A stretch of DNA of 64,000 nucleotides. Source: Pocillopora damicornis. Its lineage: Eukaryota. The stretch's first letter is position 1. Every line of letters begins with the position of its first letter. The notes beneath the pieces are model-generated. The model made no database searches. It worked only from the letters and a program-made list of their open reading frames with translations, and had not been told where the DNA came from. Positions 11,954 through 12,032 of this stretch are shown in pieces. Made by a program: the position numbers and the translations under genes. The stretch covers positions 124,001 through 188,000 of the forward strand of contig NW_020844495.1 in assembly GCF_003704095.1 (NCBI RefSeq), in the 5' to 3' direction.

Positions 11954-12032
11954 TTGACATAGAACACATGTTATTATTCACTGTTTGAGGAGAATTTATT
12001 TAGGGTGATAAAAAGATGTCACCCCTTTGACA
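11954..12032 (-). promoter_or_regulatory. Proximal promoter element of gene A
   Basis: 19-mer at 11954-11972 is 16/19 identical to the gene B promoter; TGACA/TGTCA at 11955, 12017, 12028. Confidence 0.55.

What the first reader, a model, noticed from the sequence alone, without database searches (positions are those of the whole stretch)
11954..11972. A conserved ~19-bp promoter element shared by genes A, B and C
In gene orientation: A AACATGTGTTCTATGTCAA; B AACATTTGTTTAATGTCAA (16/19, 28231-28213); C AA--TTTGTTTTATTTCAA. Each lies ~130-145 bp upstream of the ATG. It contains a TGTT (Fox-like) half followed by a TGTCA (TALE-like) half at fixed spacing. I do not recognise it as a named composite motif.
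Basis: seen in the sequence. Interest (0 to 1): 0.7.

Follow-up and report, generated by a model that had tools for sequence, protein, structure and literature searches.

The report
Shared ancient promoter of coral Nkx2.2
The 19-base match is one piece of a roughly 110-base non-coding module that sits in front of two neighbouring coral Nkx2.2 developmental genes and is almost unchanged in related corals; it is likely the control region both genes inherited from a duplication older than the coral–sea anemone split, and it likely works as a cluster of transcription-factor sites rather than as a new kind of motif.

Summary
The feature is real, larger than reported, and of a known kind. The window holds five tandem Nkx2.2-type homeobox genes (A–E) of a stony coral. 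The 19-mer is present upstream of A and B (16/19) and weakly upstream of C (13–14/19). On its own it is only marginally above chance (26 of 1500 random pairs). A stronger 36-bp block (28/36) lies 88–90 bp upstream in both A and B; the two-block score was reached by 0 of 1200 shuffles and 0 of 1329 unrelated promoter pairs. Orthologous coral loci keep the 19-mer (19/19, 18/19, 17/17) and the block (36/36 twice), while fourfold-degenerate sites are only 45% identical. A and B are saturated against each other, and their split predates corals and anemones (AU p=3.5e-17). This fits a duplicated conserved non-coding element. The 'new Fox–TALE composite' reading is weak: TGTCA is altered in B's ortholog and in C, A has no Fox site, and the spacing is not enriched genome-wide. 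The 5' half is the Iroquois-type palindrome ACAnnTGT, which is conserved near four of the five genes. Binding, function and presence in anemones are untested.

The parts
11954..11972 (-). Block 2 (the 19-mer) upstream of gene A; contains ACAnnTGT (11971-11964, overlapping the E-box CATGTG) and TGTCA
   Evidence: 19/19 in ortholog L011, inside a 102-bp identical run 11921-12022
12027..12062 (-). Block 1 (36 bp) upstream of A: WGATAR, TAATTA, ACATGT and TGTCA words
   Evidence: 28/36 to B; 36/36 in L011; motif inventory (motif names recalled)
28213..28231 (-). Block 2 (the 19-mer) upstream of gene B; ACAnnTGT at 28230-28223
   Evidence: 18/19 in ortholog L009, the one change being TGTCA to CGTCA
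28284..28319 (-). Block 1 (36 bp) upstream of B
   Evidence: 36/36 in L009, inside a 77-bp identical run 28255-28331
35209..35227 (+). Degenerate block 2 upstream of gene C (no ACAnnTGT, no E-box, TTTCA in place of TGTCA)
   Evidence: 17/17 of the quoted stretch in ortholog L023; 25 of 2312 background windows score as high; colinear TGTCA upstream in the six-way alignment
35037..35044 (+). ACAnnTGT copy 335 bp upstream of C, outside the homologous module
   Evidence: conserved in L023
49472..49483 (+). TGTTYWAYGTCA core 326 bp upstream of gene D
   Evidence: third exact hit in the window, 0.11 expected; identical in L036; scores poorly against the full 19-mer profile
62472..62479 (-). ACAnnTGT copy 115 bp upstream of gene E, overlapping TGACA
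   Evidence: conserved in L012
10535..11821 (-). Gene A, Nkx2.2-type homeobox gene, two exons; ortholog of Nematostella Nkx2.2C
   Evidence: splice sites inferred from sequence
26935..28082 (-). Gene B, Nkx2.2-type; ortholog of Acropora vnd1 and of anemone genes
35372..36656 (+). Gene C, divergent Nkx2.2-type, head-to-head with B
49798..53989 (+). Gene D, divergent Nkx2.2-type, intron of about 3.4 kb
   Evidence: exon 1 placed by ortholog L036
61296..62364 (-). Gene E, Nkx2.2-type

Best explanation
The 19-mer is the downstream block of a roughly 110-bp non-coding module shared, in the same order and spacing, by the upstream regions of coral Nkx2.2 genes A and B (degenerate in C); it is likely the proximal control region of the ancestral gene, copied in a tandem duplication older than the coral–anemone split and likely kept by selection because transcription factors still bind it. 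Shown: the sequence similarity, its colinearity, its conservation in orthologs and the age of the gene split. Inferred: that the module is as old as the gene split (no anemone promoter was seen) and that it is regulatory. The likeliest reading of the 19-mer is two adjacent sites for TALE-class homeodomain proteins, an Iroquois-type palindrome ACAnnTGT followed by a TGAC half-site. An Irx protein would repress here, while the GATA-like, TAATTA and TGACA words of block 1 would help drive inner-layer (mesodermal or gastrodermal) expression. I put the conserved-module claim at about 0.8 and the Irx/TALE assignment at about 0.3.
For: Two colinear blocks, 90 and 88 bp apart. Two-block score 33: 0 of 1200 shuffles and 0 of 1329 unrelated Fox/bHLH promoter pairs. 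Orthologs keep 19/19, 18/19, 17/17, 36/36 and 36/36 against 119 of 264 identical fourfold sites. A vs B fourfold sites are 11 of 35. Coral A groups with anemone A (100/98) and a coral A+B clade is rejected, AU p=3.5e-17. The A/B differences in block 1 are the same in both species, so there was no recent conversion. ACAnnTGT occurs once within 700 bp of each of A, B, C, E and their orthologs, always within 350 bp; controls 6 of 53. TGACA/TGTCA counts are 3, 4, 6, 1, 5 per 300 bp vs 1.08 in 53 controls. A TALE gene that I read as Irx is in the genome (L194). In Nematostella irx is aboral and nkx2.2B/D are early mesodermal.
Against: Orthologs come from corals only, one locus used per gene; no anemone promoter was examined. 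A's whole proximal 300 bp is 94% conserved, so the 19-mer does not stand out within A. A and C share no significant blocks; D and E lack the full 19-mer and block 1. ACAnnTGT ranks fourth of 14,560 gapped words at nominal p=6e-4, which does not survive correction, and two of its four genes defined it. It overlaps an E-box, which explains the same letters. C's homologous site lacks it. The transcription start is unmapped. No expression data were found for Nkx2.2C, and B's Nematostella name was not established.
Confidence: 0.75

Rival explanations
1. The core TGTTYWAYGTCA is a genuine fixed-spacing composite site for two cooperating factors, used at A, B, D and in weakened form at C.
For: Three exact hits in the window, all upstream of NK2 genes on the sense strand, 0.11 expected. 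D was not used to define the letters and its copy is conserved with diverged flanks. C differs by one base. TGT-N5-GTCA is conserved in 4 of 5 genes, more than any other spacing from 0 to 10.
Against: The 12-bp trim was chosen after seeing D. The pattern is less common than its reversed control genome-wide, 462 vs 689. No spacing preference genome-wide. No Fox consensus in A. D scores poorly on the full profile.
Confidence: 0.2
2. The 5' half is a bHLH E-box (CATGTG in A, CATTTG in B) read by a Twist/Paraxis/Hand-type or MITF-type factor, and the 3' TGAC(A/G) is a bZIP half-site.
For: The E-box is intact in A, B and both orthologs; the C and E palindromes also contain CACATG. Paraxis/Twist/Hand-related bHLH genes act in Nematostella muscle, where nkx2.2A is expressed. 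B's ortholog and D read TGACG.
Against: E-boxes occur in 39 of 53 control promoters, so their presence says little. The centres differ between A and B while the ACA/TGT arms are fixed.
Confidence: 0.25
3. The similarity comes from an old gene conversion between the A and B upstream regions in a coral ancestor, so the module is younger than the gene split, though now under selection.
For: Tandem genes of this genome can be homogenised: a Fox pair shares promoter blocks and 35 of 36 fourfold sites. No anemone promoter was available.
Against: A and B coding sequences are saturated and the similarity is patchy, with an unaligned spacer.
Confidence: 0.12
4. Chance or convergence among AT-rich promoters, or a transcribed feature (uORF or RNA structure).
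For: The 19-mer alone is reached by 26 of 1500 random pairs; the start site is unmapped.
Against: Two colinear blocks are never matched by controls. The ATG in B's 19-mer is ACG in the ortholog and C's site has none. Folding z-scores are -0.9, -0.6 and -0.3. No Rfam match.
Confidence: 0.05

Closest known systems
Duplicated conserved non-coding elements (dCNEs) of vertebrates (PMC2781166, passages read)
   Same: Non-coding sequence retained beside paralogous developmental transcription-factor genes and conserved across species.
   Different: Here the origin is a tandem duplication in a cnidarian, not a genome duplication; the element is short (36 + 19 bp), promoter-proximal and has no functional test.
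Deeply conserved regulatory segments of developmental genes, 7 of 25 reaching cnidarians (PMC10735318; abstract, first fifth of text and passages read)
   Same: Short promoter or enhancer segments at homeobox genes with E-box-like words and fixed position and orientation.
   Different: That text has no 'nkx' or 'vnd'; those segments are orthologous across phyla, this one is paralogous within corals; neither block was found at a clear match in the bilaterian NK2 loci, many of which hold little upstream DNA.
Iroquois binding site ACAnnTGT (Bilioni et al. 2005, not held; seen as cited in PMC4726432 and 10.64898/2026.01.21.700777, passages)
   Same: Exact match in the 5' half of the A and B 19-mers and in conserved copies near C and E.
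   Different: Six specified bases only; defined in Drosophila; overlaps an E-box here; absent from C's homologous site and from D.
Anthozoan NK2 gene cluster (PMC10719294 and PMC6214176, passages)
   Same: The clustered, independently duplicated NK2 genes are already described.
   Different: The passages read say nothing of shared promoter sequence; their larger supplements could not be read.

Membership tests
Duplicated conserved non-coding element | Copies lie beside paralogous genes, in the same position and orientation | tested here: met
Duplicated conserved non-coding element | Conserved between species beyond neutral sequence | tested here: met
   36/36, 36/36, 19/19, 18/19 vs 45% at fourfold sites; one ortholog per gene
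Duplicated conserved non-coding element | Non-coding and not a structured RNA | tested here: met
   Upstream of the ATGs; no conserved uORF, no Rfam match, no stable fold; 5' UTR status unknown
Duplicated conserved non-coding element | Similarity between copies is not explained by a recent duplication | tested here: met
   11 of 35 fourfold sites; AU p=3.5e-17
Duplicated conserved non-coding element | Element itself is present in the distant lineage (anemones) | not testable with these tools
   No anemone genomic DNA was returned with usable upstream sequence
Duplicated conserved non-coding element | Drives or shapes expression in a reporter | not testable with these tools
   Needs an experiment
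Iroquois binding site | ACAnnTGT palindrome | tested here: met
   A, B and orthologs; separate copies near C and E
Iroquois binding site | An Irx protein is encoded in the organism | tested here: inconclusive
   L194 is a TALE homeodomain; calling it Irx rests on my recall of the family's sequence
Iroquois binding site | Bound and repressed by Irx | not testable with these tools
   Needs EMSA, ChIP or knockdown
   No match at the three sites; the looser WAAACA is present in B and C, not A
   CGTCA in B's ortholog, TTTCA in C and its ortholog; the shorter GTCA is kept in A, B and orthologs
   352, 388 and 381 for spacers 2, 3 and 1; whole-genome counts would miss a motif used at few genes

The most novel reading that the evidence does not exclude
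The module is the surviving promoter of the single ancestral anthozoan Nkx2.2 gene, still readable in anemones about half a billion years later (date recalled), and it carries an undescribed two-factor site, TGTTYWAYGTCA, overlapping an Iroquois palindrome, that co-regulates most of the cluster: a direct, testable link between aboral Irx and mesodermal Nkx2.2 in cnidarians.
Probability: 0.15. Interest if true: 0.65.

Novelty: new member of a known kind. Interest (0 to 1): 0.38.

Why it matters
Mapped cis-regulatory elements are scarce for cnidarian developmental genes. This gives a precise, short target upstream of Nkx2.2 genes, whose anemone relatives mark early mesoderm and inner-layer muscle. 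It also shows tandem duplicates keeping alignable promoter blocks after their silent sites saturated, with graded loss across the cluster (A and B intact, C degenerate, D and E motif-level only), which is a natural case for studying regulatory partitioning after duplication. It does not establish a new class of motif.

Tried and rejected
Sequencing-run search restricted to PacBio libraries: none was listed, so no reads were laid, no start site was mapped and no further species were obtained that way. Viral contigs gave no relative; prokaryote genome contigs gave three loci, of which I read only L089, whose protein looks bilaterian-type. Earlier findings of the scan: nothing shown. The third genomic copy of the A/B letters (L008) showed no NK2 context on reading and fits chance (about 0.5 expected, my estimate). 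Block 1 core: exact only at A and B; 34 hits vs 38 control with one mismatch. The three-gene core ATNTGTTNNANNTCAA has 546 hits vs 411 control and 0 in 53 control promoters; it was derived from the three sites, so I give it no weight. NK2 autoregulatory sites (T[CT]AAGTG) in B and E are lost in both orthologs: rejected. A third A/B block (GAGGCGTG, about 460-520 bp upstream) is too short and off-diagonal to claim. My first reading of D's exon 1 with an early stop was wrong. The 88-row tree is the quick method only; the dating rests on the 17-row tree without the mixture model and without C and D. Steinmetz 2017 and Bilioni 2005 were not held.

Full report
Setting. The window holds five homeobox genes with NK2 homeodomains: A (minus, ATG 11821), B (minus, ATG 28082 or 28055), C (plus, 35372), D (plus, 49798) and E (minus, 62364). 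Their nearest named relatives are stony-coral Nkx2.2/vnd proteins, and gene E is almost identical to a protein labelled Pocillopora. Clustering of anthozoan NK2 genes is already in print (PMC10719294, PMC6214176; passages).

The observation. The A and B copies are as quoted (16/19); C matches at 13/19 and 14/19 without a gap. Distances to the ATG are 132, 130 or 157, and 144. Alone, 16/19 is reached by 26 of 1500 random 300-bp pairs, which is weak for ten promoter pairs. The letters shared by A and B occur three times in 234 Mb.

A 36-bp block, 28/36 identical, lies 90 bp (A) and 88 bp (B) upstream of the 19-mer. A two-block colinear score of 33 for A-B was reached by 0 of 1200 shuffles; B-C scored 23 (1 of 1200); the other eight pairs, A-C included, were unremarkable. 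As real-promoter controls I used 53 of 56 Fox and bHLH loci (26 of 30 fetched Fox loci, all 30 bHLH; three had no in-frame ATG; starts are inferred). Among 1329 pairs on different contigs none reached 33 and four reached 23. Among 49 same-contig pairs one exceeded 33, a Fox pair with 35 of 36 identical fourfold sites, so recent or converted. A profile from A, B and their orthologs picks C's site at a level reached by 25 of 2312 background windows and 0 of 53 controls, and finds nothing comparable in D or E.

Conservation. A metagenome scan kept the best 80 of 426 related stretches. It gave orthologous loci with upstream DNA for A (L011), B (L009), C (L023), D (L036) and E (L012); they come from several records and possibly more than one coral species. 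Fourfold-degenerate sites in exon 2 are 119 of 264 identical, about one substitution per site. The 19-mer is 19/19, 18/19 and 17/17, and block 1 is 36/36 in both A and B. The two longest identical runs in the window-ortholog comparison lie in the A and B modules, 102 and 77 bp. One caveat: A's proximal 300 bp is 94% conserved overall, so the 19-mer is not singled out there.

Age. A and B share 11 of 35 fourfold sites. In a 17-protein tree coral A groups with Nematostella Nkx2.2C and an Actinostola gene (100/98), all 13 cnidarian rows form a clade against four bilaterian Nkx2.2 rows, and a clade of coral A plus coral B is rejected (AU p=3.5e-17). The two Actinostola orthologs have consecutive locus tags. 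The gene split therefore predates corals and anemones (roughly 500 million years, recalled). That the module is equally old is inferred; an early conversion cannot be excluded without anemone promoters.

What may bind. The Fox consensus fits none of the three sites, and the spacing is not preferred genome-wide (352 vs 381 and 388). The 5' half of A and B is AACAnnTGTT, containing ACAnnTGT, cited as the minimal Iroquois site (passages of PMC4726432 and 10.64898/2026.01.21.700777; the original paper was not held). Exactly one ACAnnTGT lies within 700 bp of A, B, C and E and of each ortholog, none for D; 6 of 53 controls have one within 350 bp. In an unbiased list of 14,560 gapped six-letter words it ranks fourth of the 16 conserved in at least four genes, nominal p=6e-4, not significant after correction. 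The number of such words exceeds most control draws (19 vs mean 6.2, maximum 21 in 60 draws). TGACA words are dense (19 in five 300-bp promoters vs 1.08 each in controls; 16 of 21 conserved within 350 bp), though paralogs are not independent samples. The same letters can be read as an E-box, which 39 of 53 controls also have.

Mechanism. Most likely an inherited proximal cis-regulatory module kept by purifying selection. I commit to TALE-class input at the 19-mer, with Irx repressing and block 1 contributing inner-layer activation, at about 0.3. The context fits loosely: Nematostella irx is aboral (PMC3586664, passages), nkx2.2B and D are early mesodermal (PMC12381260, passages) and nkx2.2A marks inner-layer muscles (PMC10060217, passages). 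I found no paper naming nkx2.2c with Nematostella and did not establish which Nematostella name B carries. A uORF or RNA structure is not supported.

Novelty. Searches showed, in their listings and in the passages read, no description of this element. PMC10735318 does not mention Nkx or vnd, and a cnidarian chromatin atlas (10.1101/2025.07.01.662323, passages) does not mention Nkx, Irx or Meis in its main text. Supplements of the anemone genome paper (two files too large; the other three not opened) and of preprints (closed) may list overlapping conserved elements or peaks. The kind is known: duplicated conserved non-coding elements beside paralogous developmental genes (PMC2781166, passages). 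Verdict: a real, new member of a known kind; interest 0.38.

Noticed in passing
window 49572-49636 (+): A 65-bp run identical in ortholog L036 upstream of gene D, with a GATA-like and a Fox-like word; unrelated to the A/B module.
   Followed up: partly
window 12345-12414: A second ultraconserved run (70 bp identical in L011) about 520-590 bp upstream of A; likely a separate enhancer.
   Followed up: no
window 27826-27885 (-): A 60-bp identical run across the end of B's exon 1 and into the intron.
   Followed up: no
window 28377-28386 (-): A perfect TGACA-TGTCA palindrome upstream of B, conserved in L009.
   Followed up: no
window 28082-35372: B and C are head-to-head, and the same arrangement holds on one orthologous record (L009/L023), with further alignable non-coding stretches between them.
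   Followed up: partly
L116, L117, L118 (G000:C3396): Three tandem Fox genes nearly identical in the forkhead domain (33-35 of 35-36 fourfold sites); L116 and L118 share colinear promoter blocks, which suggests recent duplication or conversion.
   Followed up: partly
window 1-1993: A roughly 1.2-kb tandem duplication at 94-97% identity beside assembly gaps; possibly an assembly artefact or a mobile repeat.
   Followed up: no
L089, L090, L091: Animal-type homeobox sequences inside prokaryotic genome records, probably host or environmental contamination.
   Followed up: no
window genes C and D: Both lack a clear NK2-specific VPVPVL segment and sit on long branches, unlike A, B and E.
   Followed up: no
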